From positions 930,001 through 994,000 of the forward strand of contig OZ025805.1 of the NCBI GenBank assembly GCA_964019425.1: a DNA stretch of 64,000 nucleotides, read 5' to 3'. The position numbers and the translations under genes are program-made. Positions within the stretch are counted from its first letter, which is position 1; each line of letters begins with the position of its first letter. The DNA is from Flectonema sp. DT1601 (lineage: Eukaryota). The notes beneath the pieces are model-generated. The model was given only the letters and a program-made list of their open reading frames with translations. It made no database searches and was not told where the DNA came from. Shown piece by piece: positions 1 to 64,000 of this stretch.

Positions 1-2
1 GT

Positions 3-5800: not shown

Positions 5801-6194
5801 TGATCGTCAATGCATCTGGATTAATAACGGATGTACTTGCAACACTGATCCGAGAACCTGTTCCGAAATTTCGACTCGTGCAGCTTGTCAGACATCTCAT
5901 TGCCCAGACCAGGATGATCGTCAATGCATCTGGATTAATAACGGATGTACTTGCAACACTGATCCAAGAACCTGTTCCGAAATTTCAACTCAAGCTGCTT
6001 GTCAAAGCTCTAATTGCCCAGACCAAGATGATCGTCAATGCATCTGGATTAATAACGGATGTACTTGCAACACTGATCCGAGAACCTGTTCCGAAATCTC
6101 AACTCAAGCTGCTTGTCAAAACTCTAATTGCCCAGACCAGGATGATCGTCGGTGTGTCTGGAGTGAAGTTGGGTGTTCTTGCCGATTGATTTAG
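2844..6194 (+). CDS. Secreted Cys-rich tandem-repeat protein, copy 2 (1116 aa, about 28 units)
   Basis: Hydrophobic signal peptide MMYSIAVILTLALS-Q, six Cys per 38-aa unit with a CxW motif, and no C-terminal TM or GPI signal. Confidence 0.9.
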   Translation: MMYSIAVILTLALSQRPCDSYGNLRSCRRAVCPDLSTQQCTWIRTTRECKCVKPSCDDFSTPTTCQTSNCPDQDDRQCIWINNGCTCNKDPRTCSDISTQAVCQSSNCPDQDDRQCIWINNGCTCNKDPRTCSDISTQAVCQSSNCPDQDDRQCIWINNGCTCNKDPRTCSDISTQAVCQSSNCPDQDDRQCIWINNGCTCNKDPRTCSDISTQAACQSSNCPDQDDRQCIWINNGCTCNKDPRTCSDISTQAVCQSSNCPDQDDRQCIWINNGCTCNKDPRTCSDISTQAVCQSSNCPDQDDRQCIWINNGCTCNKDPRTCSDISTQAVCQSSNCPDQDDRQCIWINNGCTCNKDPRTCSDISTQAVCQSSNCPDQDDRQCIWINNGCTCNKDPRTCSDISTQAVCQSSNCPDQDDRQCIWINNGCTCNKDPRTCSDISTQAVCQSSNCPDQDDRQCIWINNGCTCNKDPRTCSDISTQAVCQSSNCPDQDDRQCIWINNGCTCNKDPRTCSDISTQAVCQSSNCPDQDDRQCIWINNGCTCNKDPRTCSDISTQAVCQSSNCPDQDDRQCIWINNGCTCNKDPRTCSDISTQAVCQSSNCPDQDDRQCIWINNGCTCNKDPRSCSDISTQAVCQSSNCPDQEDRQCIWINNGCTCNKDPRTCSDISTQAVCQSSNCPDQDDRQCIWINNGCTCNKDPRTCSDISTQAVCQSSNCPDQDDRQCIWINNGCTCNKDPRTCSDISTQAVCQSSNCPDQDDRQCIWINNGCTCNTDPRTCSEISTRAACQTSHCPDQDDRQCIWINNGCSCNTDPRTCSEISTRATCQTSHCPDQDDRQCIWINNGCSCNTDSRTCSEISTRATCQTSHCPDQDDRQCIWINNGCTCNTDPRTCSEISTRATCQTSHCPDQDDRQCIWINNGCTCNTDPRTCSEISTRAACQTSHCPDQDDRQCIWINNGCTCNTDPRTCSEISTQAVCQSSNCPDQDDRQCIWINNGCTCNTDPRTCSEISTRAACQTSHCPDQDDRQCIWINNGCTCNTDPRTCSEISTQAACQSSNCPDQDDRQCIWINNGCTCNTDPRTCSEISTQAACQNSNCPDQDDRRCVWSEVGCSCRLI

Positions 6195-6987
6195 TCAGCG
6201 TTATATTGTACTTCTTTTTAACAAATTATGATTTAAAAAGAAGACTCTTGAAGATTGTAAAGTAGATGAAAATGTTTCTCTTTGTAAGCTTCAATGAGTG
6301 TTTCATATAGTTATTAGAAACTGTTCATGCTATATTTCTGTTGTGTTTGATTTCAAAATTTTTTTATTCGCTCAAATGATTTAAGTAGTGATGAATGCAC
6401 TCTGTAAGGCTTGTGTTCATGGCTATTCGTTTTACTCTCTCATACGATAGTGTCTTTTTGTTTTGCATTAAGACTCATCATGTTTTTACTAACAATATAA
6501 GAACTGACTTTTTCATAGTTCCCTTTTCCTGCCCTCTCAGATTTTTTAAGTCGGCGTCTAACAGTTGCCTTTTTCAAGTGAAATACTGCAGTGAGCATTG
6601 TAATTGTTTGAGCATCGGTAGCATTGGAGTGAAGTTAATTTATTCCAACCTACTGAGTTACCTGCTTATACTTTTCATGTTATACTGCAATGTTGGATAC
6701 ATTCTGACGAATTTCTTCCTCGAGATTGTCGTTGAACGCTGCTGTCTTTTTTCTCTTTTCCTCTCTCTGTTTAGACTGTTATATGTCTATAAAAGAAATG
6801 TGAGCAGTGAAAGGTTTAGTTATTTAATTATTCTAATTCATTATAACTAAAGCATCATACAAAGTATGTTCCGTGGTTTCTCTCGAAATCAACGATCAAA
6901 TTAGAGGGTGTCGTTGAAAACTGATATTTCTTACTTCGTGATTCTCGCTACTTCATATTATTATTAATAGTTTATCTAACATCAAAT

Positions 6988-12900: not shown

Positions 12901-15900
12901 GACCAGGATGATCGTCAATGCATCTGGATTAATAACGGATGTACTTGCAACACTGATCCAAGAACCTGTTCCGAAATTTCAACTCGTGCAACTTGTCAGA
13001 AATCTCATTGCCCAGACCAGGATGATCGTCAATGCATCTGGATTAATAACGGATGTACTTGCAACACTGATCCGAGAACCTGTTCCGAAATTTCGACTCG
13101 TGCAGCTTGTCAGACATCACATTGCCCAGACCAGGATGATCGTCAATGCATCTGGATTAATAACGGATGTACTTGCAACACTGATCCAAGAACCTGTTCG
13201 GAAATTTCGACTCGTGCATCTTGTCAGACATCTAATTGCCCAGACCAGGATGATCGTCAATGCATCTGGATTAATAACGGATGTACTTGCAACACTGATC
13301 CAAGAACCTGTTCCGATATCTCAACTCAAGCTGTTTGTCAGAGCTCTAATTGCCCAGACCAGGATGATCGTCAATGCATCTGGATTAATAACGGATGTAC
13401 TTGCAACACTGATCCAAGAACCTGTTCCGATATCTCAACTCAAGCTGTTTGTCAGAGCTCTAATTGCCCAGACCAGGATGATCGTCAATGCATCTGGATT
13501 AATAACGGATGTACTTGCAACACTGATCCGAGAACCTGTTCCGAAATTTCGACTCGTGCAGCTTGTCAGACATCACATTGCCCAGACCAGGATGATCGTC
13601 AATGCATCTGGATTAATAACGGATGTACTTGCAACACTGATCCAAGAACCTGTTCTGAAATTTCAACTCGTGCAACTTGTCAGACATCTCATTGCCCAGA
13701 CCAAGATGATCGTCAATGCATCTGGATTAATAACGGATGTACTTGCAACACTGCACCAAGAACCTGTTCCGAAATTTCAACTCGTGCAACTTGTCAGACA
13801 TCTCATTGCCCAGACCAGGATGATCGTCAATGCATCTGGATTAATAACGGATGTACTTGCAACACTGATCCAAGAACCTGTTCCGAAATTTCAACTCGTG
13901 CAACTTGTCAGACATCTCATTGCCCAGACCAGGATGATCGTCAATGCATCTGGATTAATAACGGATGTACTTGCAACACTGATCCAAGAACCTGTTCCGA
14001 TATCTCAACTCAAGCTCTTTGTCAGAGCTCTAATTGCCCAGACCAGGATGATCGTCAATGCATCTGGATTAATAACGGATGTACTTGCAACACTGATCCA
14101 AGAACCTGTTCCGATATCTCAACTCAAGCTGTTTGTCAGAGCTCTAATTGCCCAGACCAGGATGATCGTCAATGCATCTGGATTAATAACGGATGTACTT
14201 GCAACACTGATCCGAGAACCTGTTCCGAAATTTCGACTCGTGCAGCTTGTCAGACATCACATTGCCCAGACCAGGATGATCGTCAATGCATCTGGATTAA
14301 TAACGGATGTACTTGCAACACTGATCCAAGAACCTGTTCTGAAATTTCAACTCGTGCAACTTGTCAGACATCTCATTGCCCAGACCAAGATGATCGTCAA
14401 TGCATCTGGATTAATAACGGATGTACTTGCAACACTGCACCAAGAACCTGTTCCGAAATTTCAACTCGTGCAACTTGTCAGACATCTCATTGCCCAGACC
14501 AGGATGATCGTCAATGCATCTGGATTAATAACGGATGTACTTGCAACACTGATCCGAGAACCTGTTCCGAAATTTCGACTCGTGCAGCTTGTCAGACATC
14601 ACATTGCCCAGACCAGGATGATCGTCAATGCATCTGGATTAATAACGGATGTACTTGCAACACTGATCCAAGAACCTGTTCCGAAATTTCAACTCGTGCA
14701 ACTTGTCAGAAATCTCATTGCCCAGACCAGGATGATCGTCAATGCATCTGGATTAATAACGGATGTACTTGCAACACTGATCCAAGAACCTGTTCGGAAA
14801 TTTCGACTCGTGCATCTTGTCAGACATCTAATTGCCCAGACCAGGATGATCGTCAATGCATCTGGATTAATAACGGATGTACTTGCAACACTGATCCAAG
14901 AACCTGTTCCGATATCTCAACTCAAGCTGTTTGTCAGAGCTCTAATTGCCCAGACCAGGATGATCGTCAATGCATCTGGATTAATAACGGATGTACTTGC
15001 AACACTGATCCAAGAACCTGTTCCGATATCTCAACTCAAGCTGTTTGTCTGAGCTCTAATTGCCCAGACCAGGATGATCGTCAATGCATCTGGATTAATA
15101 ACGGATGTACTTGCAACACTGATCCAAGAACCTGTTCCGATATCTCAACTCAAGCTGTTTGTCTGAGCTCTAATTGCCCAGACCAGGATGATCGTCAATG
15201 CATCTGGATTAATAACGGATGTACTTGCAACACTGATCCAAGAACCTGTTCCGATATCTCAACTCAAGCTGTTTGTCAGAGCTCTAATTGCCCAGACCAG
15301 GATGATCGTCAATGCATCTGGATTAATAACGGATGTACTTGCAACACTGATCCGAGAACCTGTTCCGAAATTTCGACTCGTGCAGCTTGTCAGACATCAC
15401 ATTGCCCAGACCAGGATGATCGTCAATGCATCTGGATTAATAACGGATGTACTTGCAACACTGATCCAAGAACCTGTTCTGAAATTTCAACTCGTGCAAC
15501 TTGTCAGACATCTCATTGCCCAGACCAAGATGATCGTCAATGCATCTGGATTAATAACGGATGTACTTGCAACACTGCTCCAAGAACCTGTTCCGAAATT
15601 TCAACTCGTGCAACTTGTCAGACATCTCATTGCCCAGACCAGGATGATCGTCAATGCATCTGGATTAATAACGGATGTACTTGCAACACTGATCCGAGAA
15701 CCTGTTCCGAAATTTCAACTCGTGCAACTTGTCAGACATCTCATTGCCCAGACCAGGATGATCGTCAATGCATCTGGATTAATAACGGATGTACTTGCAA
15801 CACTGATCCAAGAACCTGTTCCGAAATTTCAACTCGTGCAACTTGTCAGACATCTCATTGCCCAGACCAGGATGATCGTCAATGCATCTGGATTAATAAC

Positions 15901-17064
15901 GGATGTACTTGCAACACTGATCCAAGAACCTGTTCCGATATCTCAACTCAAGCTCTTTGTCAGAGCTCTAATTGCCCAGACCAGGATGATCGTCAATGCA
16001 TCTGGATTAATAACGGATGTACTTGCAACACTGATCCAAGAACCTGTTCCGATATCTCAGCTCAAGCTGTTTGTCAGAGCTCTAATTGCCCAGACCAGGA
16101 TGATCGTCAATGCATCTGGATTAATAACGGATGTACTTGCAACACTGATCCGAGAACCTGTTCCGAAATTTCGACTCGTGCAGCTTGTCAGACATCACAT
16201 TGCCCAGACCAGGATGATCGTCAATGCATCTGGATTAATAACGGATGTACTTGCAACACTGATCCAAGAACCTGTTCTGAAATTTCAACTCGTGCAACTT
16301 GTCAGACATCTCATTGCCCAGACCAAGATGATCGTCAATGCATCTGGATTAATAACGGATGTACTTGCAACACTGCTCCAAGAACCTGTTCCGAAATTTC
16401 AACTCGTGCAACTTGTCAGACATCTCATTGCCCAGACCAGGATGATCGTCAATGCATCTGGATTAATAACGGATGTACTTGCAACACTGATCCGAGAACC
16501 TGTTCCGAAATTTCGACTCGTGCAGCTTGTCAGACATCACATTGCCCAGACCAGGATGATCGTCAATGCATCTGGATTAATAACGGATGTACTTGCAACA
16601 CTGATCCAAGAACCTGTTCCGAAATTTCAACTCGTGCAACTTGTCAGAAATCTCATTGCCCAGACCAGGATGATCGTCAATGCATCTGGATTAATAACGG
16701 ATGTACTTGCAACACTGATCCAAGAACCTGTTCGGAAATTTCGACTCGTGCATCTTGTCAGACATCTAATTGCCCAGACCAGGATGATCGTCAATGCATC
16801 TGGATTAATAACGGATGTACTTGCAACACTGATCCAAGAACCTGTTCCGATATCTCAACTCAAGCTGTTTGTCTGAGCTCTAATTGCCCAGACCAGGATG
16901 ATCGTCAATGCATCTGGATTAATAACGGATGTACTTGCAACACTGATCCAAGAACCTGTTCCGATATCTCAACTCAAGCTGTTTGTCAGAGCTCTAATTG
17001 CCCAGACCAGGATGATCGTCAGTGTGTCTGGAGTGAAGTTGGGTGTACTTGCCGATTGATTTAG
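6988..17064 (+). CDS. Giant secreted Cys-rich tandem-repeat protein, copy 3 (3358 aa, about 87 units)
   Basis: Same signal peptide and terminal sequence as copy 2. The frame is open for 10 kb and Cys/Trp positions are invariant among variant units. Confidence 0.88.
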   Translation: MIYSIAVILTFALSQRPCDSYGNLRSCRRAVCPDLRTQQCTWIRTTRECKCVKPSCDDFSTPTTCHTSNCPDQDDRQCIWINNGCTCNTDPRTCSEISTQASCQSSNCPDQDDRQCIWINNGCTCNTAPRTCSEISTRATCQTSHCPDQDDRQCIWINNGCTCNTAPRTCSEISTRATCQTSHCPDQDDRQCIWINNGCTCNTDPRTCSEISTRAACQTSHCPDQDDRQCIWINNGCTCNTDPRTCSEISTRATCQTSHCPDQDDRQCIWINNGCTCNTDPRTCSEILTRATCQTSHCPDQDDRQCIWINNGCTCNTAPRTCSEISTRATCQTSHCPDQDDRQCIWINNGCTCNTDPRTCSEISTRATCQTSHCPDQDDRQCIWINNGCTCNTDPRTCSEISTRATCQTSHCPDQDDRQCIWINNGCTCNTAPRTCSEISTRATCQTSHCPDQDDRQCIWINNGCTCNTDPRTCSEISTRATCQTSHCPDQDDRQCIWINNGCTCNTAPRTCSEISTRATCQTSHCPDQDDRQCIWINNGCTCNTDPRTCSEISTRATCQTSHCPDQDDRQCIWINNGCTCNTAPRTCSEISTRATCQTSHCPDQDDRQCIWINNGCTCNTDPRTCSEISTRATCQTSHCPDQDDRQCIWINNGCTCNTAPRTCSEISTRATCQTSHCPDQDDRQCIWINNGCTCNTAPRTCSEISTRATCQTSHCPDQDDRQCIWINNGCTCNTDPRTCSEISTRATCQTSHCPDQDDRQCIWINNGCTCNTAPRTCSEISTRATCQTSHCPDQDDRQCIWINNGCTCNTDPRTCSEISTRATCQTSHCPDQDDRQCIWINNGCTCNTDPRTCSEISTRVTCQTSHCPDQDDRQCIWIHNGCTCNTDPRTCSEISTRATCQTSHCPDQDDRQCIWINNGCTCNTDPRTCSEISTRATCQTSHCPDQDDRQCIWINNGCTCNTDPRTCSEISTRATCQTSHCPDQDDRQCIWINNGCTCNTDPRTCSEISTRVTCQTSHCPDQDDRQCIWIHNGCTCNTDPRTCSEISTRATCQTSHCPDQDDRQCIWINNGCTCNTDPRTCSEISTRATCQTFHCPDQDDRQCIWINNGCTCNTDPRTCSDISTQALCQSSNCPDQDDRQCIWINNGCTCNTDPRTCSEISTRVTCQTSHCPDQDDRQCIWIHNGCTCNTDPRTCSEISTRATCQTSHCPDQDDRQCIWINNGCTCNTDPRTCSEISTRATCQTFHCPDQDDRQCIWINNGCTCNTDPRTCSDISTQALCQSSNCPDQDDRQCIWINNGCTCNTDPRTCSDISAQAVCQSSNCPDQDDRQCIWINNGCTCNTDPRTCSEISTRAACQTSHCPDQDDRQCIWINNGCTCNTDPRTCSEISTRATCQKSHCPDQDDRQCIWINNGCTCNTDPRTCSEISTRASCQTSNCPDQDDRQCIWINNGCTCNTDPRTCSDISTQAVCLSSNCPDQDDRQCIWINNGCTCNTDPRTCSDISTQAVCQSSNCPDQDDRQCIWINNGCTCNTDPRTCSEISTRAACQTSHCPDQDDRQCIWINNGCTCNTDPRTCSEISTRATCQTSHCPDQDDRPCIWINNGCTCNTAPRTCSEISTRATCQTSHCPDQDDRQCIWINNGCTCNTDPRTCSEISTRATCQTSHCPDQDDRQCIWINNGCTCNTDPRTCSEISTRATCQTSHCPDQDDRPCIWINNGCTCNTAPRTCSEISTRATCQTSHCPDQDDRQCIWINNGCTCNTDPRTCSDISTQALCQSSNCPDQDDRQCIWINNGCTCNTDPRTCSDISAQAVCQSSNCPDQDDRQCIWINNGCTCNTDPRTCSEISTRAACQTSHCPDQDDRQCIWINNGCTCNTDPRTCSEISTRATCQTSHCPDQDDRQCIWINNGCTCNTAPRTCSEISTRATCQTSHCPDQDDRQCIWINNGCTCNTDPRTCSEISTRAACQTSHCPDQDDRQCIWINNGCTCNTDPRTCSEISTRATCQKSHCPDQDDRQCIWINNGCTCNTDPRTCSEISTRAACQTSHCPDQDDRQCIWINNGCTCNTDPRTCSEISTRASCQTSNCPDQDDRQCIWINNGCTCNTDPRTCSDISTQAVCQSSNCPDQDDRQCIWINNGCTCNTDPRTCSDISTQAVCQSSNCPDQDDRQCIWINNGCTCNTDPRTCSEISTRAACQTSHCPDQDDRQCIWINNGCTCNTDPRTCSEISTRATCQTSHCPDQDDRQCIWINNGCTCNTAPRTCSEISTRATCQTSHCPDQDDRQCIWINNGCTCNTDPRTCSEISTRATCQTSHCPDQDDRQCIWINNGCTCNTDPRTCSDISTQALCQSSNCPDQDDRQCIWINNGCTCNTDPRTCSDISTQAVCQSSNCPDQDDRQCIWINNGCTCNTDPRTCSEISTRAACQTSHCPDQDDRQCIWINNGCTCNTDPRTCSEISTRATCQTSHCPDQDDRQCIWINNGCTCNTAPRTCSEISTRATCQTSHCPDQDDRQCIWINNGCTCNTDPRTCSEISTRAACQTSHCPDQDDRQCIWINNGCTCNTDPRTCSEISTRATCQKSHCPDQDDRQCIWINNGCTCNTDPRTCSEISTRASCQTSNCPDQDDRQCIWINNGCTCNTDPRTCSDISTQAVCQSSNCPDQDDRQCIWINNGCTCNTDPRTCSDISTQAVCLSSNCPDQDDRQCIWINNGCTCNTDPRTCSDISTQAVCLSSNCPDQDDRQCIWINNGCTCNTDPRTCSDISTQAVCQSSNCPDQDDRQCIWINNGCTCNTDPRTCSEISTRAACQTSHCPDQDDRQCIWINNGCTCNTDPRTCSEISTRATCQTSHCPDQDDRQCIWINNGCTCNTAPRTCSEISTRATCQTSHCPDQDDRQCIWINNGCTCNTDPRTCSEISTRATCQTSHCPDQDDRQCIWINNGCTCNTDPRTCSEISTRATCQTSHCPDQDDRQCIWINNGCTCNTDPRTCSDISTQALCQSSNCPDQDDRQCIWINNGCTCNTDPRTCSDISAQAVCQSSNCPDQDDRQCIWINNGCTCNTDPRTCSEISTRAACQTSHCPDQDDRQCIWINNGCTCNTDPRTCSEISTRATCQTSHCPDQDDRQCIWINNGCTCNTAPRTCSEISTRATCQTSHCPDQDDRQCIWINNGCTCNTDPRTCSEISTRAACQTSHCPDQDDRQCIWINNGCTCNTDPRTCSEISTRATCQKSHCPDQDDRQCIWINNGCTCNTDPRTCSEISTRASCQTSNCPDQDDRQCIWINNGCTCNTDPRTCSDISTQAVCLSSNCPDQDDRQCIWINNGCTCNTDPRTCSDISTQAVCQSSNCPDQDDRQCVWSEVGCTCRLI

Positions 17065-29137: not shown

Positions 29138-29472
29138 TACCTTTCTTCAATTCACTGGCCAACCGTTTCGTGAAGATTAGTAAGGGATCCTTGTTTTATG
29201 ATCGATTTGCGGACTATGTAGGTTCTCACTTTAATAAGACGAGCGTTTAGGCACATCTTCCAGACAACAAGTAAATTAGATTTACAGGCGGCAGATTCAC
29301 TGATGGTGGTGATCTTACAAAACGCAAGAATCTTGCGAATTTTCCCATTCTCTCCATTTTCTTATGCGCAGCACACTTGTCATTTGCTTGAGAGAGTGTC
29401 ATAATTTTTTCTTTTCCATATTTTGTCCACAGTTGTGGACTGCAGATAAATGAGGTGGAAAATAGTAAAAAA

Positions 29473-29578
29473 AAAAAGGTGATACTTTCTCGATTAATGC
29501 GTGTCATCCTTGCGCAGGGACCATGCTAATCTTCTCTGTATCGATCCAATTTTAACGGATGTCCCATTGCTGGGCTCC
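29473..29578 (-). ncRNA. U6: U6 spliceosomal snRNA
   Basis: Minus strand reads GGAGCCCAGCAATGGGACATCCGTTAAAATTGGATCGATACAGAGAAGATTAGCATGGTCCCTGCGCAAGGATGACACGCATTAATCGAGAAAGTATCACC-TTTTT, with the ACAGAGA box, AGC triad, internal stem-loop and Pol III T-run. Confidence 0.97.
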
Positions 29579-29645
29579 AAATAACATGCGAGTGACCACC
29601 AAGTGGGCCCGAAAATCGGATCCGACAGAAAAAATGACCCGGGTC

Positions 29646-29655
29646 GGAATCGAAC
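29646..29655 (-). promoter_or_regulatory. Pol III B-box upstream of U6
   Basis: GTTCGATTCC on the minus strand, about 68 nt upstream of the U6 5' end. Confidence 0.55.
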
Positions 29656-30025
29656 TGGACGGTTTCGTTTTTTTATAAAAAAAATATTAAAGAAAACATT
29701 AAAAAAAAACCCCCATACAAAAACCCTTGTTCAAGTGGAAGTGTGTTTGGTTGTGACACAGCTGAAAAGTGTGACACATCATCTTTTGTCGCATTGTTCA
29801 AAAGGAAGTGAGAAACAAAGTCAGCAAAAATCATGTTTGTTTTAGTAATTCGGTTTTTCTCGTCTTTCCCGTTTTTCTTTCCCCCTCAACGACTCCCACA
29901 AGCTTCGTTTCTAGTTACCTACGTTTATGAAGAAGTGCAGTTTTTTTTTTTGTGCATCTGTGAAGGTAGTTGGTTGCTTTCGGGATAACGTTTTATGCTC
30001 TTCAATCACTTCAGGTACTCTCAAT

Positions 30026-32951: not shown

Positions 32952-34127
32952 ATGCAACTCTCGATCGCGTTTCCAGACACAGGATTTCCCGACGTTATTT
33001 TCATAGCTACGGGAGATTCGCTCGTGAAGGCTGCATTGCAGATTGCAGCCGATGAGTGGGGTACCGATACTGACTTTCTTGAGCTTTCTCTCGCAGGAGC
33101 ACGGCTTTCAGCAGGTGATCGATTAGTGTCGTACGGAGTGGAGGACGGCTCACTGTTGGATGCATCGGTGGTGCGCTTGTTTGGATTGGAATGGTTCACA
33201 GATGCTGCAAAGAGAGCGAAGGCATTCCTACGAGGAGAACGGGATCAGGACGGGTTTTTGTGCCTTGATACTCCCACATTCGCTGTGGATGGCTGTCTTC
33301 AGTTTAGTAACAGTGAGTGGTTTTCGGATGATGTTACGAACATCTCATTCAGCAACTCTGAACCCTCAGTCACGACCGTTTCGGATGATTTCTTATCCTC
33401 ATCTCGTAAGGTTAAAAAGGTCAGTCTTCCTGGTCTTCAATACGTCACATCTGTTGGTAATGATTTCCTCAGAAATTGCTGTTCACTTACATCCGTAGAC
33501 TTGTCAAGCCTCAGCAATGTTTCAGCTGTTGGAAATGATTTTCTCTCTTATTGTGTATCCCTCACATCCGTAGACTTGTCATGCCTGAGCAATGTTTCAG
33601 CTGTTGGAACTTATTTTCTCGCTTCTTGTTCATCCCTCACGTCCCTGGACTTGTCATGCTTCAGCAATGTTTCAACTGTTGAAACTTGTTTGCTAAGTCA
33701 TTGTTCGTCCCTCACATTAGTGGACTTATCGAGTCTCAGCAATGTTTCAGCTGTTAGAAATTGTTTTCTAAGTCGCTGTTCATCCCTCACATCTCTGGAC
33801 TTGTCATGCCTCAGCAATGTTTCAGTTATTGGAAGTTATTTTCTAAGTCATTGTTCGTCCCTCACGTCCCTGGACTTGTCAGGTCTCAGCAATGTTTCAA
33901 CTGTTGGAAGTTATTTTCTAAGTCATTGTTCATCCCTCACCTCCCTGGACTTATCGAGTTTCAGTAATGTTTTAATGATTGAAGTGCATTTTCTGAATTA
34001 TTGTACATCTCTAACGTCTCTGGACTTGATCCTCATGGATGTGAAATGTGTTGGAAACAGTTTCCTCAAAGGTTGTTCATCTATTAACAGAGACGAACTG
34101 CATACGAGCATAAGGAACTTTAAATGA
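32952..34127 (+). CDS. Ubiquitin-like domain plus 25-aa leucine-rich repeat (BspA-like) protein, copy 1
   Basis: N-terminal UBL-like LELSLAGARLSAGDRLVSYGVEDGS, then repeats CSSLTSLDLSxLSNVSxVGxxFLxx. Confidence 0.85.
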   Translation: MQLSIAFPDTGFPDVIFIATGDSLVKAALQIAADEWGTDTDFLELSLAGARLSAGDRLVSYGVEDGSLLDASVVRLFGLEWFTDAAKRAKAFLRGERDQDGFLCLDTPTFAVDGCLQFSNSEWFSDDVTNISFSNSEPSVTTVSDDFLSSSRKVKKVSLPGLQYVTSVGNDFLRNCCSLTSVDLSSLSNVSAVGNDFLSYCVSLTSVDLSCLSNVSAVGTYFLASCSSLTSLDLSCFSNVSTVETCLLSHCSSLTLVDLSSLSNVSAVRNCFLSRCSSLTSLDLSCLSNVSVIGSYFLSHCSSLTSLDLSGLSNVSTVGSYFLSHCSSLTSLDLSSFSNVLMIEVHFLNYCTSLTSLDLILMDVKCVGNSFLKGCSSINRDELHTSIRNFK

Positions 34128-51968: not shown

Positions 51969-53049
51969 TGACAGTTTGAGTTATTGAGTGAACTTTTACA
52001 GGTTCAAATCAAGTGAATTAAGCAGCCTCTCTGTGTGCTAAGGTAAACGCTATTCCATATGTTATTTTTTTTTGTTTGTTTTTTTTTGTGATTTAAATCA
52101 CCCAGCTTACGCTATGTATTTCTTTATGTATCAATTTGAATGTGTTTTTTGATAAGCTTTTTCAAGCCACGTCAGCATACGTTTTTGCTTTTTCTTAATA
52201 TTATTTTTTTTACACCACCTTGAGTGAGTCTCTTAAGGTGTTATTGTTGGTTTCGGTTTACATTTTTTTTTTTTTTTTTTATTATTCAGGTTTTTACCAT
52301 GGTGAGTGTGAATACCTACCAGGCAAGCCTTAGAAAGTAAAACATCCAGTTGGTGGTTTGAAGCACTTTTTTCTTTATGAAATCTTATTTTTTTTTCCTT
52401 TTTATATTCGTTTGCAAATAATTTAAAAAGCTATGACGGGCTTCAGGTTACAACACGGTTGTAGACTTTACGAAATCGAACATACATTCCCCCGGAATCT
52501 CCATATTCGACAGCACTGGGATTTTATTGATGCCAACTGTTGAGCCTTTTTACGTGGCAACTTGTTTTAGATGGTTTCTTGTTTTGGTTTTTGCCAGTTT
52601 CAAGTTACCTCGTACCTTTTTTTTTTTTTTTTTTGAAAAAATTGCCTAAGTGTGTCTTGCTTTTCTATTTATTAGCACGTTATCCTTTACTTTAAATTGA
52701 TTCCAGATGCGAACAAAAACAAAATTATTTATCCCATCAAACCAAAATTTTTTTTTTCATTAAAGTCTCTGTTTCTACAGATGATTTTTTTTCTTTTTTT
52801 TTTTTTTTTTTTTTGAGCTTGTTGTTGTTTTCGTTCTCTTTCTTCTGCCCGCCTTTTCCCCGATGGTTCGACTGATTTATTTATAAAAAAAACTACTTCA
52901 TTTTTATAACTCATCCTTATAATATCAGTCTACATTCGAGTCAGAGAAGTATCGGAATACGCACTGGTCAGGGATGCCTGATTTTATGTATTTTCCACAG
53001 GTAGCAATTCCCCCTCCCCGGCGAAAATAAAATAAAATAAAATAAGGAA

Positions 53050-57325: not shown

Positions 57326-58351
57326 ATGCAACTCTCGATCGCGTTCCCAGACACAGGATTTCCCGACGTTATTTTCACAGCTTCTGGAGATTCGCTCGTG
57401 AAGGATGCATTGCAGATTGCAGCCGATGAGTGGGGTACCGATACTGACTTTCTTGAGCTTTCTCTCGCAGGAGCACGGCTTTCGGCAGGTGATCGATTAG
57501 TGTCGTACGGAGTGGAGGACGGCTCACTGTTGGATGCATCGGTGGTGCGCTTGTTTGGATTGGAATGGTTCACAGATGCTGCAAAGAGAGCGAAGGCATT
57601 CCTACGAGGAGAACGGGATCAGGATGGGTTTTTCTGCCTTGATACTCCCACATTCGCTGTGGATGGCTGTCTTCAGTTTAGTAACAGTGAGTGGTACTCG
57701 GATGATGTTACGAACATCTCATTCAGCAACTCTGAACCCTCAGTCACGACCGTTTCGGATGATTTCTTATCCTCATCTCGTAAGGTTAAAAAGGTCAGTC
57801 TGCCTGGTCTTCAATACGTCACATCTGTTGGTAATGATTTCCTCAGAAATTGCTATTCACTTACATCCGTAGACTTGTCAAGCCTCAGCAATGTTTCAGC
57901 TGTTGGAAATGATTTTCTCTCTTCTTGTGCATCCCTCACATCCGTAGACTTGTCATGCCTGAGCAATGTTTCAGCTGTTGGAACTTATTTTCTCGCTTCT
58001 TGTTCATCCCTCACATCTCTGGACTTGTCATGCCTCAGCAATGTTTCAGTTATTGGAAGTTGCTTTCTAAGTCATTGTTCGTCCCTCACGTCCCTGGACT
58101 TGTCAGGTCTCAGCAATGTTTCAACTGTTGGAAGTTATTTTCTAAGTAGTTGTATATCCCTCACCTCCCTGGACTTATCGTGTCTCAGTAATGTTTTAAT
58201 GATTGAAGGGTATTTTCTGAATTATTGTACATCTCTAACGTCCCTGGACTTGACCCTCATGGATGTGAAATGTGTTGGAAACAGTTTCCTCAAAGGTTGT
58301 TCATCTATTAACAGAGACGAACTGCATACGAGCATAAGGAACTTTAAATGA
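57326..58351 (+). CDS. Ubiquitin-like domain plus LRR protein, copy 2 (two LRR units shorter)
   Basis: Near-identical to 32952-34127 but 50 aa shorter. Flanks are also duplicated (about 57143-58439 vs 32785-34215). Confidence 0.85.
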   Translation: MQLSIAFPDTGFPDVIFTASGDSLVKDALQIAADEWGTDTDFLELSLAGARLSAGDRLVSYGVEDGSLLDASVVRLFGLEWFTDAAKRAKAFLRGERDQDGFFCLDTPTFAVDGCLQFSNSEWYSDDVTNISFSNSEPSVTTVSDDFLSSSRKVKKVSLPGLQYVTSVGNDFLRNCYSLTSVDLSSLSNVSAVGNDFLSSCASLTSVDLSCLSNVSAVGTYFLASCSSLTSLDLSCLSNVSVIGSCFLSHCSSLTSLDLSGLSNVSTVGSYFLSSCISLTSLDLSCLSNVLMIEGYFLNYCTSLTSLDLTLMDVKCVGNSFLKGCSSINRDELHTSIRNFK

Positions 58352-58893
58352 CACCAATCAATCAATATAACCAAACTGGTTAATATCAGAACAAGGTAAG
58401 TCTCATTGATTACTTCTCACATATTTGATGAGTTGTAACCGTTTTAGTGTTCTACAGTGTTTAATGAAACAGAAAAAATAATTTTTTTTTTAATAATATG
58501 AAGTATACTTCATTTTTATGTTTACCTTCGCACTTTTATATGAAAGGAAATGTAAATAATGTTTTTCTCCTTTTTTTTTTCTTTTTTCTCTGGTTGCGTC
58601 TCTGAAACTAAGCCAACCCAACTACTTACTTTTGGATTCGATAAATCACAGCGTGCGAAGAAATTAAAAAAAAAAAAACGTTTTGTGTGTACGTAAAAAG
58701 TTTCTCTTGATTTGTGACTAGCAACGCCAAGCCCTGTGCACATTATACTTCGCCCCCCCCTCAGCATTTTTTTCAAAGAATTGTTGATTTTAAGCAAGTA
58801 ATTTGTAGGTGAAACCTACACTCTGCCGTATTACATTATACCCTGGTTTTGGTTTCCCAGGGCTCACGATTAATTCAAAATTGAATAACTCGA

Positions 58894-58956
58894 TTCCGTA
58901 CTGCACTGAATGACAACACGGAAAAAGAGACATGTATGCAAATAAGTTAGAAACAT
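58894..58956 (+). ncRNA. Variant or degenerate permuted hammerhead ribozyme, module 1
   Basis: UUCCGU-ac-UGCA-CUGAAUGA-cAAC-ACGGAA..AUGU-A^UGCA-aauaa-GUUa-GAAA-CAU. Same element order as module 2; the core has one extra nt and stem II is weak. Confidence 0.6.
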
Positions 58957-59015
58957 TGATTATAATGTAAAGTATTTACGTCAATCGCAGAGTGTATACT
59001 ACACTAACTTTACCT

Positions 59016-59623
59016 TTAGTCACTGTATCTCAGAACTAATGTTAAATTATCGTTATGTTGTTTATGATACAAAACATTTGTATTTTACGTACAAACTCGA
59101 ACAGTTAACCCCCCCTCAGGATTTATAATGATTCATGTCTAATTTGTTGCGTGTTAGCCTTGATTTATTTATCCAAGTCCCCCCTCAGGAACTTTTTTTT
59201 TTATTTATGAACATGAAACACAAAGTAACTACATTCCAGTCCTGCAAACTGGAATGACTCAGTCTCAACATTTGACTGACTTACTTCTACACCATACTGA
59301 TGAGAGAGAATAGAGGTAAGAGGTATATGGATTACTCTCGAAACCTATAGTTACTTTAATATGCTAAGTTGCGCATCACCCTTAGTCACTGTATTTAAAA
59401 CTAATGTTAAATTATCTTTATGTTTTTATGATACAACACAGTTGTAATTTTTACAAAATCGAACATACATCCCCCCTCAGGAACCGAACAAGATTAAAGG
59501 ATCAGTTATCCCCTTAGTCACTGTATCTAAAATTAATGTTAATTATTCCTGGCTTTTGGCTTCCTAGGCTTCGTAAATAAATAAAATAAATAATTATCGT
59601 ACGTTACATCCCCCCCCCCCTCA
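59016..59623 (+). repeat. Three ~100-nt leader repeats (59016-59120, 59382-59481, 59514-59623)
   Basis: Each starts ttagtcactgtat..taatgttaa(a)ttat and ends in C6-11-TCA(G). Copies 1 and 2 align throughout; copy 3 diverges in the middle. Confidence 0.85.
59280..59346 (+). ncRNA. Hammerhead ribozyme with non-circularly permuted topology, module 2; predicted cleavage after A59325
   Basis: CUGAUGA (59297-59303), stem II GAGAG/CUCUC, GAAA (59340-59343), stem I CCAUA/UAUGG, stem III ACCU/AGGU and GUA triplet at 59323-59325. Confidence 0.85.
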
Positions 59624-59631
59624 CCCCCAAG

Positions 59632-62600
59632 ATGTTATTATCGAGAGGTGCTAGATATAGACTCTTTGAGGATCCGAAAACTGTCACGGAGGAAGTAATG
59701 TACGCTATAGATGAATACATCATGCATTACTTCCCAGATGAGAAATACGAACCTCTATGTATTTTTTTAAAAAAAGCGGCAAAAAATCAAATCGGAAAGC
59801 TACCGCAGATGGATGTTATTGATGAATTCAAACAAGTACAGAAGGAACTGAAGGAAATTAAAAAACATTTGATTTTTACCAGAATCGACAAAACGACACA
59901 CGATCTGGCAGTATGTTGTAAGAAATACTACAACACAAAACTAAACGAGCACATCGGTAACAGAATTGTGTACGCAGAGGTTCCGAAAGATCAGATAAAT
60001 CCAACGATGAAAAGGATCGAAGACATCAACAAGAAACATGGTTTCAGAAATACGGAAAATTTGCCATATTTATATGGAAATCCGAAGATGCATAAAGACC
60101 CTCCGAAGTTTAGATTCATAGCTGGAACTTCGAACAAAACACTGGATGTCAAATACATCAACTCTAAGGTAATGCCTGCGCCCTTCACAGCCACAACAGA
60201 CATGTCAAAGGAAATGTCTGGGATACTTAAGACTTTCATGGAAATAGTTAAAAAAGCTGAAAAAGTGGAATACGAAACAACGAATATAAGAAAGTATTTT
60301 ATAATTCAGAATGTAGATGAAGTTGCACAGTACATCAAAAGCAACTACTCAACTCTCCAACAAATGAAGGTAAAGACATATGATTTCTCAGATATGTACA
60401 CGAACCTCCCCCATGATAAGATTAAAAAAGTTATCAACGAATTAATCAGCAAGTACATGGACGGGCAGATAATGGTTAGAGACAAAAGAAGTGGAATTGG
60501 TAAAGACTTTTACCTTGACAAAAGCTACGATAAAGATGTTCAAGTAGCATACGAAGAGAGCAAAGTTAAAGAACTACTCAGCACGATTCTATCTAATGCT
60601 TACATTAAGAATGGAGAACTTATGCTCAAACAAAGCCATGGTATACCGATGGGTTCTCAATGCTCACCACATATTGCGAACTTATACTGCTTTGGCATTG
60701 AAAAACAATGGGTGGAAAACGTCATTTCACAGAAAGGTATTGGGGCAGCGATAAATAACAAAATCATATTCAGATACATTGATGATTTTTTAATTTTCAG
60801 CCACAATGACCCAAGCCCACCACCGAGTGAGATGTATAAAATGTCATATACAGATACATCAATGGGCAACAACGATGTAGTATTCCTTGGGATGAGAATC
60901 CGGTTGGAAGAAAGGCCGAGAGGACACCCGTTCGTACGACTTTCAATATGGGATAAAGAAAATCTGTTTAATTTCCAACCCATTAAGTATACCAGTTCGG
61001 AATCCAACGCACCGAAAAGCCTAGGACCAGGTATTCTAAAAGGTGCCATGTACAGAGCCGCTACTAATATCAATAACGATTTCGACTTATACCTTGAAAT
61101 TGAGAAAGTGCTATACCGTCTGAGAAGTCGCGGATACTCGAAAAACAGTCTGTTCCCCCAATATAAAGACTTTGTACTGGGTACATACTGGGATTTCCCA
61201 AAACAAAGGGAAAGTCTTCATCATCATTTCTTTGAAATCAATCGGAAATATGACAACGGAAGACCAGTATCGAAAGAAAAACAGACAATCCAACAACATT
61301 ATAAAGTCAATGGAAGGGATGACATTTATAATATGCTGTTGGACAAGAGAATTGGATATGCGAAATTAAGGAGGAATGACAACACATTGGTGACATCATT
61401 TAAAATTGCCAGTCAAGCGATTATTAAAAACAAGAAGGAATGTCAGCAATGCAAAGCTATAATCTCTGACGACACTGAATCACTGGTCAATGATATCAAC
61501 ATTAAATATCACACTGGAATATTCAAAACAGCAAAATTCTACAAGGAATTTAAAGAGATATTGCCTATCAATGTCAGTATCCTTTCATACAAAAAGGGTA
61601 TAACAACTCGAGTAGTAGTCAACAAAGATAACAATCACGAATGTCACATGTTGATCGGATGTACGGAAGGTGGATTTTTCTTTCCAATTACAGCAAGATA
61701 CACGGAAAAGGAAATTCAAAGTCAGCTACTCGAAAAGAAGGATCCAGAAAAATCCGATATCGCTGACAACACGTCGAAAGACTTGAAAGTAGTACAAAAG
61801 GAGCAGAAGTCAGAAGAGTCTGGAAAAACTGAAGTACCAAACGATGATTATTGGTCCACCTTCATTGATAATAAATTCCCTATTACGATGCACACGCAAC
61901 CAGCAGAAGGACTTCGTAGTGGGGAATGTGGCTGGGCAACTGTTAACTTCATAGCAGATCACCTCAAAACTGAAAGAATCAGAATATCGAAGATGTTTAA
62001 GATTCAATTCCGACTCGCAGAGCAAGAGCTTAAGTTAATTGGAGAGAACTTGATGTTCTCATTTAACCCAGATGGTTGGTTTCATCAGATAGTTATTTAT
62101 GAAACAATAAGAATATATCTGGGACTAGAAGTAACACATGTGACAACCCATGAACAGCTGAAAACAATCACAGTAGGTCCAACAGAACAAGAAACTATTG
62201 TCATTCCATACATCATAGTGTCACGTAGAGCAGCCTACACACATTACATCGTCTTTATTGATATAAATTCTAAATACAAGGGATTTGATATAATCAATCC
62301 AACTCCAGATTGTAATGGGATAGAAGATATCATGACGAAGTATCCGTTGAAGGAATACGAATACCACGTTGTAATGAAAACAACGAAAGATATTCCTCCA
62401 ATAGACTTGTCTGCACTGGCAATAACAGAGTCACCAGCAAAGGATAATTCCACAACAAAAACTACAGAAGTGGAAATTAAAAAATTCACGGACGAGGAGG
62501 ATGTAACAGATCTTGAGACAATGATTTCGGCAATCGAAAAAGCGGACAAAATGAAGCCCAAATCGACACCGGGAAAAGTCAATAAGATAGAGATAAGGGC

Positions 62601-64000
62601 CGTATCACCACCAAAGATATGCCAGGATAATATACCGACCCTGTACATATCGCCGATGGTGAAGATACCACCATTACCAGTACTACTATCACCAGTGTTA
62701 CCAAGACCATCAATAATTCCAATGACAATACCAATAACGATACCGAAGATAATAAAAATGGAACCTTCGGTAATGCAAAAAATTATATCGCTACCATCAA
62801 ATAGTTTTCAGAAGACGCTAGTCACTGTAAATAATGCACTTACGGTAGCCCCACCAGCAATCCCGACATTGATGCCAGCAACGATTTCAAAGGTATCACA
62901 ATTGGCACCGCCGACTGTACTTCAAAAGAAGACACAAGTCATTGCAAATGATGAACTCACACAGGTCCCGCCGATAATTCCAACAATGATACCAACACCA
63001 ATTACAAATTTATCACAATCGACACCGTCAATTGTACTTCAAAAGAATACACAAGTCAGTGCGAGTGATGCACTTACACAGGCCCCGCCGATAATTCCAA
63101 CGCTGATGCCAGCAAGGATTTCAAAAATATCACAATTAGCACCGCCGACTGTAATTCAGAAGAAGACACAAGTTATTGCAAATGAGACACCTACAATGGC
63201 CCCACCTGCAATCCCAACGTTGATGCCAGCAACGATCTCAAAGGTATCACAATTGGAACCTCCAACTGTACATCAAAGTGTGATTCAATCTATGAAAACG
63301 ATACAATTACCGATTGTATCACCATTGGATCTGGATCATAATGATGTGGATATGATCGATATGCCGTCACCAGCAACAGTACAACTGGATACGGACACTG
63401 ACATGGTAATGGAAACTATGTCACCAGAGACGCAGGAATCACCGGAGCATAGATATGCTGGCGTAATGACTCCATCCAAAGACAGGATGGAGTCACCACC
63501 AATAACTCCGATTAAGATTAAGACTCCACTGAAAATAAAGACGCCTCTGAAGATCGAAACTCCGACTAAAATAATTCCACAAACCCAACAAGCATGTTGG
63601 GATGGAAAGAACCTCGAATTAATACGAAGTTTGTCAAAAGAAAGACAGTTGGAGAAAATAGTCACCACATACAGACTAAGATCAACTACACCACAAACAG
63701 TAGCCAGGAAGATGGAAACACCACCTACTGTAAGCAGTAAAGCCACGAATTCCGGAACAACAATACCGATTACACCACAAAAGGTATCAAGAGTACTAAC
63801 ATACACAGATACAGAGAATATCGGTAAAACTTGCAAATATTGCAATAAATCCTGGAAGTCATTTATTGACCATATCAATAAATGTGGAATATTCAGAGCA
63901 TCAAAAGAATATCCAACATATGTTGATGAAGATGATAACACTTCATTTACGGTCACTGAATACAAAACGGATCCTCGAAATAGTATTGTAACTGTTACAA
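59632..64000 (+). CDS. Penelope-like reverse transcriptase polyprotein (RT, Josephin-like protease, Pro/Thr repeats, CCHC knuckle); 3'-incomplete
   Basis: Manual translation finds no stop to 64000. Motifs: LLSRGARYR, IDK (59884), LPYLYGNPKMHKDPPKFRFIAG (60061), TYDFSDMYTNLPH (60376), QSHGIPMGSQCSPHIANLY (60631), FRYIDD (60769-60786), FLG, WDK and RGY. In-frame stop upstream at 59587-59589. Confidence 0.95.
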   Translation, partial: MLLSRGARYRLFEDPKTVTEEVMYAIDEYIMHYFPDEKYEPLCIFLKKAAKNQIGKLPQMDVIDEFKQVQKELKEIKKHLIFTRIDKTTHDLAVCCKKYYNTKLNEHIGNRIVYAEVPKDQINPTMKRIEDINKKHGFRNTENLPYLYGNPKMHKDPPKFRFIAGTSNKTLDVKYINSKVMPAPFTATTDMSKEMSGILKTFMEIVKKAEKVEYETTNIRKYFIIQNVDEVAQYIKSNYSTLQQMKVKTYDFSDMYTNLPHDKIKKVINELISKYMDGQIMVRDKRSGIGKDFYLDKSYDKDVQVAYEESKVKELLSTILSNAYIKNGELMLKQSHGIPMGSQCSPHIANLYCFGIEKQWVENVISQKGIGAAINNKIIFRYIDDFLIFSHNDPSPPPSEMYKMSYTDTSMGNNDVVFLGMRIRLEERPRGHPFVRLSIWDKENLFNFQPIKYTSSESNAPKSLGPGILKGAMYRAATNINNDFDLYLEIEKVLYRLRSRGYSKNSLFPQYKDFVLGTYWDFPKQRESLHHHFFEINRKYDNGRPVSKEKQTIQQHYKVNGRDDIYNMLLDKRIGYAKLRRNDNTLVTSFKIASQAIIKNKKECQQCKAIISDDTESLVNDINIKYHTGIFKTAKFYKEFKEILPINVSILSYKKGITTRVVVNKDNNHECHMLIGCTEGGFFFPITARYTEKEIQSQLLEKKDPEKSDIADNTSKDLKVVQKEQKSEESGKTEVPNDDYWSTFIDNKFPITMHTQPAEGLRSGECGWATVNFIADHLKTERIRISKMFKIQFRLAEQELKLIGENLMFSFNPDGWFHQIVIYETIRIYLGLEVTHVTTHEQLKTITVGPTEQETIVIPYIIVSRRAAYTHYIVFIDINSKYKGFDIINPTPDCNGIEDIMTKYPLKEYEYHVVMKTTKDIPPIDLSALAITESPAKDNSTTKTTEVEIKKFTDEEDVTDLETMISAIEKADKMKPKSTPGKVNKIEIRAVSPPKICQDNIPTLYISPMVKIPPLPVLLSPVLPRPSIIPMTIPITIPKIIKMEPSVMQKIISLPSNSFQKTLVTVNNALTVAPPAIPTLMPATISKVSQLAPPTVLQKKTQVIANDELTQVPPIIPTMIPTPITNLSQSTPSIVLQKNTQVSASDALTQAPPIIPTLMPARISKISQLAPPTVIQKKTQVIANETPTMAPPAIPTLMPATISKVSQLEPPTVHQSVIQSMKTIQLPIVSPLDLDHNDVDMIDMPSPATVQLDTDTDMVMETMSPETQESPEHRYAGVMTPSKDRMESPPITPIKIKTPLKIKTPLKIETPTKIIPQTQQACWDGKNLELIRSLSKERQLEKIVTTYRLRSTTPQTVARKMETPPTVSSKATNSGTTIPITPQKVSRVLTYTDTENIGKTCKYCNKSWKSFIDHINKCGIFRASKEYPTYVDEDDNTSFTVTEYKTDPRNSIVTVT
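62848..63275 (+). repeat. 117-bp (39-aa) coding tandem repeat, about 3.6 copies
   Basis: APPAIPTLMPATISKVSQLAPPTVLQKKTQVIANDELTQ-like units start at 62848, 62965, 63082 and 63199. Confidence 0.85.

What the first reader, a model, noticed from the sequence alone, without database searches (positions are those of the whole stretch)
58753..64000. Candidate new retroelement system: tandem permuted-hammerhead leader driving a PLE RT-protease polyprotein
Seen: two modules, each [C6-8-TCAG, T-run, outer helix, hairpin A, hairpin B, permuted hammerhead, outer helix, ~100-nt repeat, C6-7-TCAG] at about 58753-59120 and 59179-59481. A third repeat ends 8 nt before the ATG of an intact RT ORF of at least 1456 codons. 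Established: Penelope-like elements carry hammerheads in their terminal repeats, usually minimal type I. Inference: the ribozymes excise the element RNA from the host polycistron. Double cleavage (after 58936 and 59325) would release a 389-nt RNA with 5'-OH and cyclic-phosphate ends that could circularise, as retrozyme RNAs do. I do not recognise this combination of leader and domain order as a described family.
Basis: partly seen in the sequence, partly recalled or inferred. Interest (0 to 1): 0.92.

Follow-up and report, generated by a model that had tools for sequence, protein, structure and literature searches.

The report
Rare knotted hammerhead at Chlamys retroelement
A protist chromosome carries a likely self-cutting RNA in one of the rarest known wirings, which probably marks the tail ends of Penelope-type jumping genes stacked in front of a headless copy, rather than being a leader that drives a new kind of element.

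Summary
The anatomy is real; the interpretation needs turning round. [quoted passage not shown] None of 100 window shuffles gave one. Module 1 has the same layout but an extra core A and a stem II mismatch, so it is predicted slow or dead.

The ORF is open but not whole. A 68%-identical sister protein has 915 more N-terminal residues, including a GIY-YIG motif and CxC linker, and a near-identical copy runs on past this ATG. It is a 5'-truncated Chlamys-type Penelope-like element with a Josephin-fold protease, a layout already described (PMC8557442).

In 10 of 68 related loci, rearranged (S-G-C) cores sit just behind the ORF. The modules are therefore most likely 3' ends stacked at a poly-C target. 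A 389-nt retrozyme-like circle is unlikely.

New within my searches: a genomic home for type-CSG, in a group reported to lack canonical hammerheads. Cleavage, and the link to this family's own 3' end, are untested.

The parts
58753..58764 (+). C8-TCAG junction motif 1 (left border of the stack; likely target site or its duplicate)
58817..58996 (+). Module 1 structured region: outer helix 58817-58840/58961-58996 (interrupted), hairpin A 58841-58862, hairpin B 58873-58886
   Evidence: (z -3.48, 2 of 200 shuffles fold as well)
58894..58956 (+). Degenerate type-CSG hammerhead. Joining helix 58894-99/58918-23; stem I 58902-05/58937-40; 8-nt core 58906-13 (one extra A); stem II 58914-17/58946-49 with a C.A first pair; stem III 58932-35/58953-56; predicted cut after 58936
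   Evidence: an insertion after A6 gave low activity in PMC3088659 (passage)
59012..59108 (+). A/T-rich tail repeat R1 (72% AT), likely the element's 3' tail
59109..59121 (+). C7-TCAGGA junction motif 2
59122..59178 (+). Short spacer unit with no detected homology in the window
59179..59190 (+). C6-TCAGGA junction motif 3
59222..59357 (+). Module 2 structured region: outer helix 59222-31/59348-57, hairpin A 59232-59256, hairpin B 59259-59279
   Evidence: z -5.35, 0 of 200 shuffles; pair probabilities 0.96-0.99
59280..59346 (+). Complete type-CSG hammerhead. Joining helix 59280-89/59311-20; stem I 59292-96/59326-30; core CUGAUGA 59297-303; stem II 59304-08/59335-39; stem III 59321-24/59343-46; GAAA 59340-43; predicted cut after 59325 (GUA)
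   Evidence: same four-helix layout as Suppl. Fig. 10 of PMC10085705
59378..59470 (+). A/T-rich tail repeat R2 (76% AT; 84.5% identical to R1 over the aligned 110 nt)
59471..59482 (+). C6-TCAGGA junction motif 4
59483..59609 (+). Third unit: spacer, 37 nt of R (59511-59546), a small hairpin resembling hairpin A by eye, A-rich stretch; no hammerhead core
59610..59631 (+). C11-TCA-C5-AAG: 5'-truncation junction of the RT copy; also a pyrimidine tract ending in AG directly before the ATG
59632..61170 (+). 5'-truncated Chlamys-type RT region: GARYR at aa 6, DKT at 86-88, motif A D251, motif B Q334, YIDD 382-385, thumb
61900..62394 (+). Josephin-fold cysteine protease domain (aa ~757-921) with predicted triad C766, H871, D886
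62400..63831 (+). Low-complexity Pro/Thr/Ile region with 117-nt tandem repeats (62859-63277)
63832..63885 (+). CxxC-x9-H-x3-C motif, also in the sister family, whose ORF ends about 160 aa after the last aligned window residue with no nuclease match
52440..52498 (+). Lone, diverged copy of the 3' half of repeat R ending in a C5 run, 6.3 kb upstream
   Evidence: nhmmer E 2.4e-6

Best explanation
The stretch is a 5'-truncated Chlamys-type Penelope-like retroelement preceded by what are likely 3'-end pieces of such elements stacked at one poly-C site, one of which holds a complete, predicted-active type-CSG hammerhead.

Shown: the RT and Josephin-fold ORF is missing its front part; every unit border is a C-run+TCA; module 2 has all four helices and the full core of type-CSG; related elements keep a rearranged hammerhead core just behind their ORF, often followed by an A/T-rich tail and a simple repeat.

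Inferred: (1) The full element (about 2,800 aa: N-terminal extension, GIY-YIG, CxC, RT, Josephin, C/H finger) nicks C-run targets and copies RNA from the A/T-rich tail inwards. (2) Early stops, template jumps or repeated insertions into one site leave short [hairpins-hammerhead-tail] pieces head to tail, as pseudo-LTRs and non-autonomous Chlamys do. (3) The ribozyme would cut element RNA out of read-through transcript near the element's 3' end. (4) Modules 1 and 2 come from two different families or non-autonomous derivatives that share the tail, and module 1 has decayed. (5) This copy could not nick DNA by itself.
For: Truncation: window residue 2 aligns to residue 916 of P0291 (68% over 294 aa), which has a GIY-YIG motif at 585. 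P0018 and P0060 carry the CxC linker upstream. A 92%-identical copy (P0275) reads on upstream: 21 of 24 positions fit the linker off-frame, against a maximum of 13 in 300 shuffles.

Placement: the RT lies in a fully supported clade (100, FastTree, 85 rows; 100, IQ-TREE quick, 40 rows). All its rows with a typed endonuclease lack the Naiad CxxC (13 of 13; 9 of 9). It lies in a 95/97 subclade with Diplonema papillatum elements.

Protease: pLDDT 72 model; top hits are Josephins (Foldseek E 1.5e-4; VIA Z 10.6, rmsd 3.4, 131 aligned).

3' position: 11 S-G-C hits in non-coding sense-strand flanks of 10 of 68 related loci, against 0.32 expected. The cut lies 59-477 nt after a stop codon in the 8 of these with a stop in view. 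L002 and L033 are head-to-tail contigs. A simple repeat follows within 47-122 nt in 6 of 13 motifs examined; the window's C-runs follow 125 and 153 nt after the cores.

Target: (C)n targets, 5' truncation and head-to-tail non-autonomous copies are described for Chlamys (PMC8557442, sections 9, 10, 15). A truncated sister-family copy reads PPPPPQE at its junction (P0022), which fits the window's C-run motif better than 100 of 100 shuffles. A lone tail ending in C5 lies at 52440-52498.
Against: The 3' end of this RT copy is outside the window and no genome is held, so the modules were never seen behind this family's ORF. No strict CSG was found in any of the 68 related loci (0 of 68): relatives use S-G-C, mostly with stem II replaced by two other helices. 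Those 10 loci are about 7 independent families by eye. In 7 of 13 motifs no simple repeat lay within 130 nt. The tail pattern had 0 matches in metagenomes and the tail profile had no significant match in the loci. The rest of P0022's upstream part does not match the modules. The tree has no named Chlamys, Penelope, Neptune, Athena or Coprina reference. Pfam gave no match for P0291, so its GIY-YIG rests on the motif and on similarity to P0173. A profile built from two Josephin relatives did not detect the window domain by sequence (E 13).
Confidence: 0.64

Rival explanations
1. The modules are independent small ribozyme-bearing repeats (SINE- or retrozyme-like), not homologous to the RT family's own 3' end. 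They merely share the C-run target, and probably borrow a Chlamys RT.
For: The two modules differ almost completely outside the tail. Relatives use another block order. Run X1 holds two diverged module 1-like contigs, one lacking 58896-58942 and one with a different 3' continuation (151-nt contigs at depth 3-4). A lone tail copy lies elsewhere.
Against: The layout core - A/T-rich tail - simple repeat matches the 3' ends of related autonomous elements. [quoted passage not shown]
Confidence: 0.17
2. An accidental or co-opted gene: the truncation put a pyrimidine tract and AG directly before an in-frame ATG. In a trans-splicing host the copy would be translated as an endonuclease-less RT-Josephin protein, with the module 2 ribozyme cutting it free from the upstream transcript.
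For: C-rich tract + AG at 59610-59631 abuts the ATG. The ORF has no stop in 1456 codons. It lies on the same strand as 29 of the 30 long ORFs in the window.
Against: An open frame is expected of a young insertion: sister fragments are 92-100% identical. The Met is Ile in the sister copy. Eight such pyrimidine-AG sites lie in the stack. No expression data were available.
Confidence: 0.11
3. One reading: a new element family whose tandem ribozyme leader excises the RNA, drives an intact RT-protease ORF and releases a 389-nt circle.
For: Two hammerhead-like modules lie upstream of an open ORF on the same strand, 389 nt between predicted cuts. The fragment folds at -78.7 kcal/mol linear and -74.7 circular (no shuffle control).
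Against: The ORF is truncated by about 915 aa relative to the sister family, the architecture is described (PMC8557442), module 1 is defective, and a closed circle rebuilds no hammerhead (2/0/2 bp), unlike tandem retrozyme units, each of which carries a type I hammerhead (bioRxiv 10.64898/2026.07.22.740005, part 1).
Confidence: 0.05
4. The hammerhead match is chance in a structured, A/T-rich repeat.
For: One sequence only; no multi-sequence covariation; Rfam finds nothing. Module 1's joining helix alone is reached by 732 of 5000 random segment pairs.
Against: 0 of 100 window shuffles reach module 2's stems. Its joining helix is reached by 11 of 5000 random pairs and sits where the published CSG has it. 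A second core in the same order occupies the same slot in module 1 (0 of 2000 shuffles give two). Rfam models cannot represent this order.
Confidence: 0.03

Closest known systems
Type-CSG hammerhead ribozymes CSG-1 and CSG-2 (Eckert et al. 2023, PMC10085705; read parts 1 and 3-6 of 8 of the main text and supplement passages)
   Same: [quoted passage not shown]
   Different: The published ones are 2 unique sequences (5 in all) from soil metagenome DNA, with no linked element. This one is in a eukaryotic chromosome, has unrelated stem sequences, cuts at GUA rather than GUC, is nested in an outer helix with two hairpins, and lies beside a retroelement. Not assayed.
Chlamys Penelope-like elements, especially Chlamys-1_cBra (Craig et al. 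2021, PMC8557442; read sections 9, 10, 15, passages, and part of File S1)
   Same: N-terminal GIY-YIG without CCHH and CxC linker (in the sister family), DK-x motif, long ORF with Josephin-like domain and a C/H motif behind the RT, (C)n targets, 5' truncation, tandem repeats.
   Different: The host looks euglenozoan, a group not mentioned in that paper's main text. Full length is about 2,800 aa rather than about 1,800. There is a non-circularly permuted hammerhead where no canonical one was detected. Clade-mates carry UCH, Ulp1 or Josephin proteases in the same slot.
'HHR_half_core' Naiads (PMC8557442, section 20 passage; 8 entries in File S1)
   Same: The two halves of the hammerhead core lie 35-50 nt apart near the 3' end; here they are 36 nt apart in both modules.
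   Different: Those were left unexplained, are in animal Naiads, and their block order was not checked by me.
Non-LTR retrozymes (bioRxiv 10.64898/2026.07.22.740005; read part 1 of 5 and passages)
   Same: Short, non-coding, hammerhead-bearing units in head-to-tail order, tied to Penelope-like elements.
   Different: Retrozyme units are homologous tandem repeats, each with a type I hammerhead. These units are dissimilar, only one core is intact, and circularising would not rebuild a ribozyme.

Membership tests
Type-CSG hammerhead (module 2) | 5'-3' block order C, S, G | tested here: met
Type-CSG hammerhead (module 2) | Conserved core CUGAnGA, GAAA, UH with A15.1-U16.1 pair | tested here: met
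Type-CSG hammerhead (module 2) | [quoted passage not shown] | tested here: met
   5, 5, 4 and 9-10 bp; layout as
Type-CSG hammerhead (module 2) | Site-specific self-cleavage | not testable with these tools
   needs an in vitro assay or RNA end mapping
Type-CSG hammerhead (module 1) | Consensus 7-nt core and paired first position of stem II | tested here: not met
   8-nt core and C.A mismatch; filed as a degenerate copy
Chlamys PLE | N-terminal GIY-YIG lacking CCHH, in the closest full-length relatives | tested here: met
   motif in P0291 (68% identical family; below Pfam threshold); Pfam GIY-YIG in P0019, P0026, P0173, P0179
Chlamys PLE | N-terminal GIY-YIG in this copy's own family | tested here: inconclusive
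   absent from this truncated copy; the one own-family fragment reaching upstream (P0275) covers only about 25 codons
Chlamys PLE | CxC linker before the RT | tested here: met
   P0005, P0011, P0018, P0060; the own-family copy fits the linker off-frame
Chlamys PLE | DK motif without a fixed third residue | tested here: met
   DKT at aa 86-88; Hydra also has DKT but no CxC and a C-terminal EN
Chlamys PLE | Insertion-in-fingers domain | tested here: inconclusive
   83 aa from motif A Asp to motif B Gln; the shorter canonical spacing is recalled, not measured here
Chlamys PLE | (C)n or (CA)n insertion bias | tested here: met
   5 of the 6 sense-strand C runs of 6 or more in the window border the units; one locus only
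Chlamys PLE | Pseudo-LTR: the upstream piece repeats the element's 3' end | not testable with these tools
   3' end beyond the window; no genome held
Chlamys PLE | RT groups with named Chlamys | tested here: inconclusive
   groups with elements bearing a Chlamys-type EN and apart from Naiad-type ENs; no named references in the tree
Non-LTR retrozyme | Homologous tandem units, each with an intact type I hammerhead | tested here: not met
EN-minus PLE (Athena/Coprina) | Family lacks an endonuclease and sits at chromosome ends | tested here: not met
   sister family has a GIY-YIG motif; host genes lie directly upstream
Josephin-type cysteine protease | Papain-like Josephin fold with Cys-His-Asn/Asp triad | tested here: met
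   C766/H871/D886 invariant in 4 of 4 aligned rows; fold hits; sequence-only test negative; activity untested

The most novel reading that the evidence does not exclude
Penelope-like elements with an N-terminal endonuclease never lost their hammerheads but carry them in non-circular orders that descriptor searches miss. A euglenozoan branch switched from S-G-C to C-S-G, making these elements the natural home, and perhaps the origin, of type-CSG ribozymes. In this trans-splicing host the ribozyme and a poly-C/AG junction may also turn an endonuclease-less RT-deubiquitinase copy into an expressed gene.
Probability: 0.3. Interest if true: 0.85.

Novelty: new variant of a known kind. Interest (0 to 1): 0.62.

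Why it matters
Type-CSG hammerheads were judged 'likely valid' on two similar sequences with no biological context. A third, unrelated example in a chromosome, with all four helices, would strengthen the class and give it a role. Chlamys and Naiad elements were reported to lack canonical hammerheads, with unexplained split cores. This locus, plus 10 related loci with S-G-C cores, suggests the ribozymes are present but rewired, and that the wiring can switch within one clade. That makes the evolution of non-circular RNA permutation testable on a retroelement tree. It also points to Chlamys-type elements with captured deubiquitinase-type domains in Euglenozoa, where my searches found no report.

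Tried and rejected
No genome is held, so genomic copies and the 3' end could not be collected.

RNA searches. Rfam: only U6 at gathering level; 5 chance matches in the stack, no hammerhead. Tail pattern in metagenomes: 0. C6TCAG in loci: 0 of 68. Strict CSG in related loci: 0 of 68. The relaxed search gave 3 non-coding C-S-G hits with 8-nt cores and 0-1 bp stem II (L026, L033, L061; 0.18 expected), which I did not count as ribozymes.

Related loci. None in viral contigs or prokaryote genomes.

Sequencing runs. One holder with 8% of words; no RNA holder listed. Its contigs cover the element patchily and say nothing on copy number or expression. A closer lay on the modules was not obtained.

Protein searches. 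PDB sequence searches with the RT: nothing significant. Single-sequence fold of the protease: pLDDT 35, discarded. Protease homologue search among longer proteins: only the sister family. The ESM Atlas did not complete. A C-terminal nuclease was not found by Pfam in the sister-family ORFs and C-terminal fragments scanned (P0011, P0013, P0010, P0006).

Other. Bacterial promoter scan: irrelevant to a eukaryote. Telomere-type (Athena/Coprina) reading rejected. The trees dropped 15 rows as more than 85% identical and kept 85 of 261 qualifying rows; 40 of these were used.

Literature searches for prior reports. 'type-CSG' occurs in 1 paper only. Subscription journals are not covered, and bioRxiv supplements were not seen. 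PMC11167929, PMC13725137, PMC12278014 and PMC3088659 were seen as passages only.
Full report
Setting. Twenty-nine of the 30 ORFs of at least 150 aa lie on the + strand, and many match eukaryotic families such as NPR2, CCDC93, phosphodiesterase and BspA-type LRR. A U6 gene is at 29472-29575. This one-strand, apparently intron-free layout suggests a kinetoplastid-like euglenozoan (inference). No genome is held.

Observation. The five C-run+TCA motifs are the only ones in the window (0.16 expected). Both modules fold into an outer helix with two hairpins (z -3.5 and -5.4). The tail repeat is 84.5% identical over 110 nt, but the structured parts share little sequence: 12 of 300 shuffles reach their score. 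The third unit has only 37 nt of the repeat. A lone diverged tail ending in C5 lies at 52440-52498.

The ribozyme. A search for all six block orders finds one hit in 64 kb with stems of at least 4/4/4: module 2, order C-S-G, stems 5/5/4. None of 100 shuffles gives stems of at least 5/5/4, and 1 of 100 gives any C-S-G at the looser cut-off. A further helix of 9-10 bp (pair probability 0.98) joins the strand before stem I to the strand after stem II; 11 of 5000 random segment pairs reach it. This is the layout of type-CSG in Eckert et al. 2023 (PMC10085705), known from two unique soil-metagenome DNA sequences that cleaved at 0.004 and 0.03 per minute. Module 1 has the same four helices with different letters, but an 8-nt core and a C.A first pair in stem II. 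An insertion after A6 gave low activity in PMC3088659. Its joining helix alone is unremarkable (732 of 5000), yet two C-S-G cores in the leader arose in 0 of 2000 shuffles. Rfam has no match. Cleavage is untested.

The ORF is headless. The closest relatives form multicopy families on long ENA contigs (35-member and 14-member clusters). Window residue 2 aligns to residue 916 of P0291 (68% identity). P0291 carries a GIY-YIG motif without the Naiad cysteines at 585 and a CxC linker; Pfam did not call it, but it aligns to P0173, where Pfam does. Three fragments 92-100% identical to the window protein come from contigs of one length. One of them, P0275, has Ile for the window's Met and continues upstream in a shifted frame that fits the linker at 21 of 24 positions (maximum 13 in 300 shuffles). 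The window copy is therefore cut at the C11 run and its ATG is incidental. Sister-family ORFs end about 160 residues after the last aligned window residue, with no nuclease match.

Family. The RT has DKT and the Penelope-type motifs. In two trees it lies in a fully supported clade whose typed endonucleases all lack CxxC, within a 95/97 subclade with Diplonema papillatum elements; Naiad-type rows group apart. No named references were available. The second domain has invariant C766, H871 and D886, folds at pLDDT 72, and matches Josephins best (Foldseek E 1.5e-4; Z 10.6, rmsd 3.4, 131 aligned). A sequence-only test failed. Clade-mates hold UCH, Ulp1 or Josephin domains there. Craig et al. 2021 (PMC8557442) describe Chlamys with Josephin plus C/H extensions, (C)n targets, 5' truncation, and head-to-tail non-autonomous copies. 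The domain order is therefore not new.

Which end do the modules belong to? Among 68 metagenome loci with related RTs, none has a strict C-S-G. However, 10 have S-G-C cores on the sense strand outside ORFs: 11 hits against 0.32 expected, about 7 families by eye. Their cuts lie 59-477 nt behind a stop codon, or in the terminal overlap of head-to-tail contigs. In 6 of 13 motifs examined a simple repeat follows within 47-122 nt, and one family diverges from its flanks 92 nt after the core starts. The window modules show the same sequence of parts: core, 125-153 nt, C-run. A truncated sister copy reads PPPPPQE at its junction, fitting the same motif, though its further upstream part does not match the modules. 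I read the modules as 3' ends. This is inference: this family's own 3' end was not seen. Whether TCAG(GA) belongs to the target or to the element is open.

The circle. It needs module 1 to cut, and closing the 389-nt piece yields only 2/0/2 bp of stems, so it would not be a self-renewing retrozyme unit. No RNA data were available.

Novelty. 'type-CSG' occurs in one paper of the library. Searches for rearranged hammerheads in Penelope-like elements, or for such elements in Euglenozoa, found no report. Craig et al. noted unexplained half-cores 35-50 nt apart. Three earlier notes of this scan report S-G-C-like ribozymes in animal retroelements, two naming Naiads; these are leads, and my locus scan agrees in part.

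Verdict: not a new retroelement system, but a new variant: a Chlamys-type element tied to the rarest hammerhead wiring. Interest 0.62.

Noticed in passing
L001:4287-4420, L002:17-150, L011:5632-5775, L013:2300-2435, L004:3469-3575, L015:1840-1945, L006:4412-4510, L010:3806-3925, L005:5263-5395, L031:3076-3220, L026:3919-4030: Relatives carry S-G-C hammerhead cores in which stem II is replaced by two separate helices (5-10 bp after the core, 5-6 bp before GAAA) that pair with strands upstream of the cut site; an architecture beyond the published type-SGC.
   Followed up: partly
L033:245-335: Strong S-G-C core (stem I 8 bp, stem III 12 bp, stem II 2 bp) in the 3' region of a head-to-tail contig.
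   Followed up: partly
L053:1170-1257: A possible C-S-G core with an inverted 15.1-16.1 pair right at the ORF stop, followed by telomere-like C-rich units; the parse is ambiguous.
   Followed up: no
proteins P0019-P0047, P0173, P0179, P0316: This RT clade carries different cysteine proteases behind the RT (UCH, Josephin, Ulp1/C48), several in Diplonema papillatum gene models annotated as host ubiquitin hydrolases or fused to kinesin or V-ATPase.
   Followed up: partly
window 29472-29670: U6 snRNA on the - strand with a tRNA-like B-box stretch about 60-90 nt upstream, seen by eye; ARAGORN calls no tRNA.
   Followed up: no
window 1-17064: Three arrays of a 114-nt unit (about 17, 28 and 87 copies) encoding Cys-rich proteins up to 3358 aa; two ORFs match the Paramecium surface antigen domain.
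   Followed up: no
window 32952-34127 and 57326-58351: Two paralogous BspA-type LRR genes built from 75-nt repeats; the second lies 400 nt before the insertion stack.
   Followed up: no
run X1 laid on window 58811-58995: Two 151-nt contigs are diverged variants of module 1; one skips 58896-58942, which removes the core and the cut site (depth 3-4, single contigs).
   Followed up: partly
window 59547-59569: A hairpin in the third unit resembles hairpin A of module 1 by eye, suggesting the units are mosaics.
   Followed up: no
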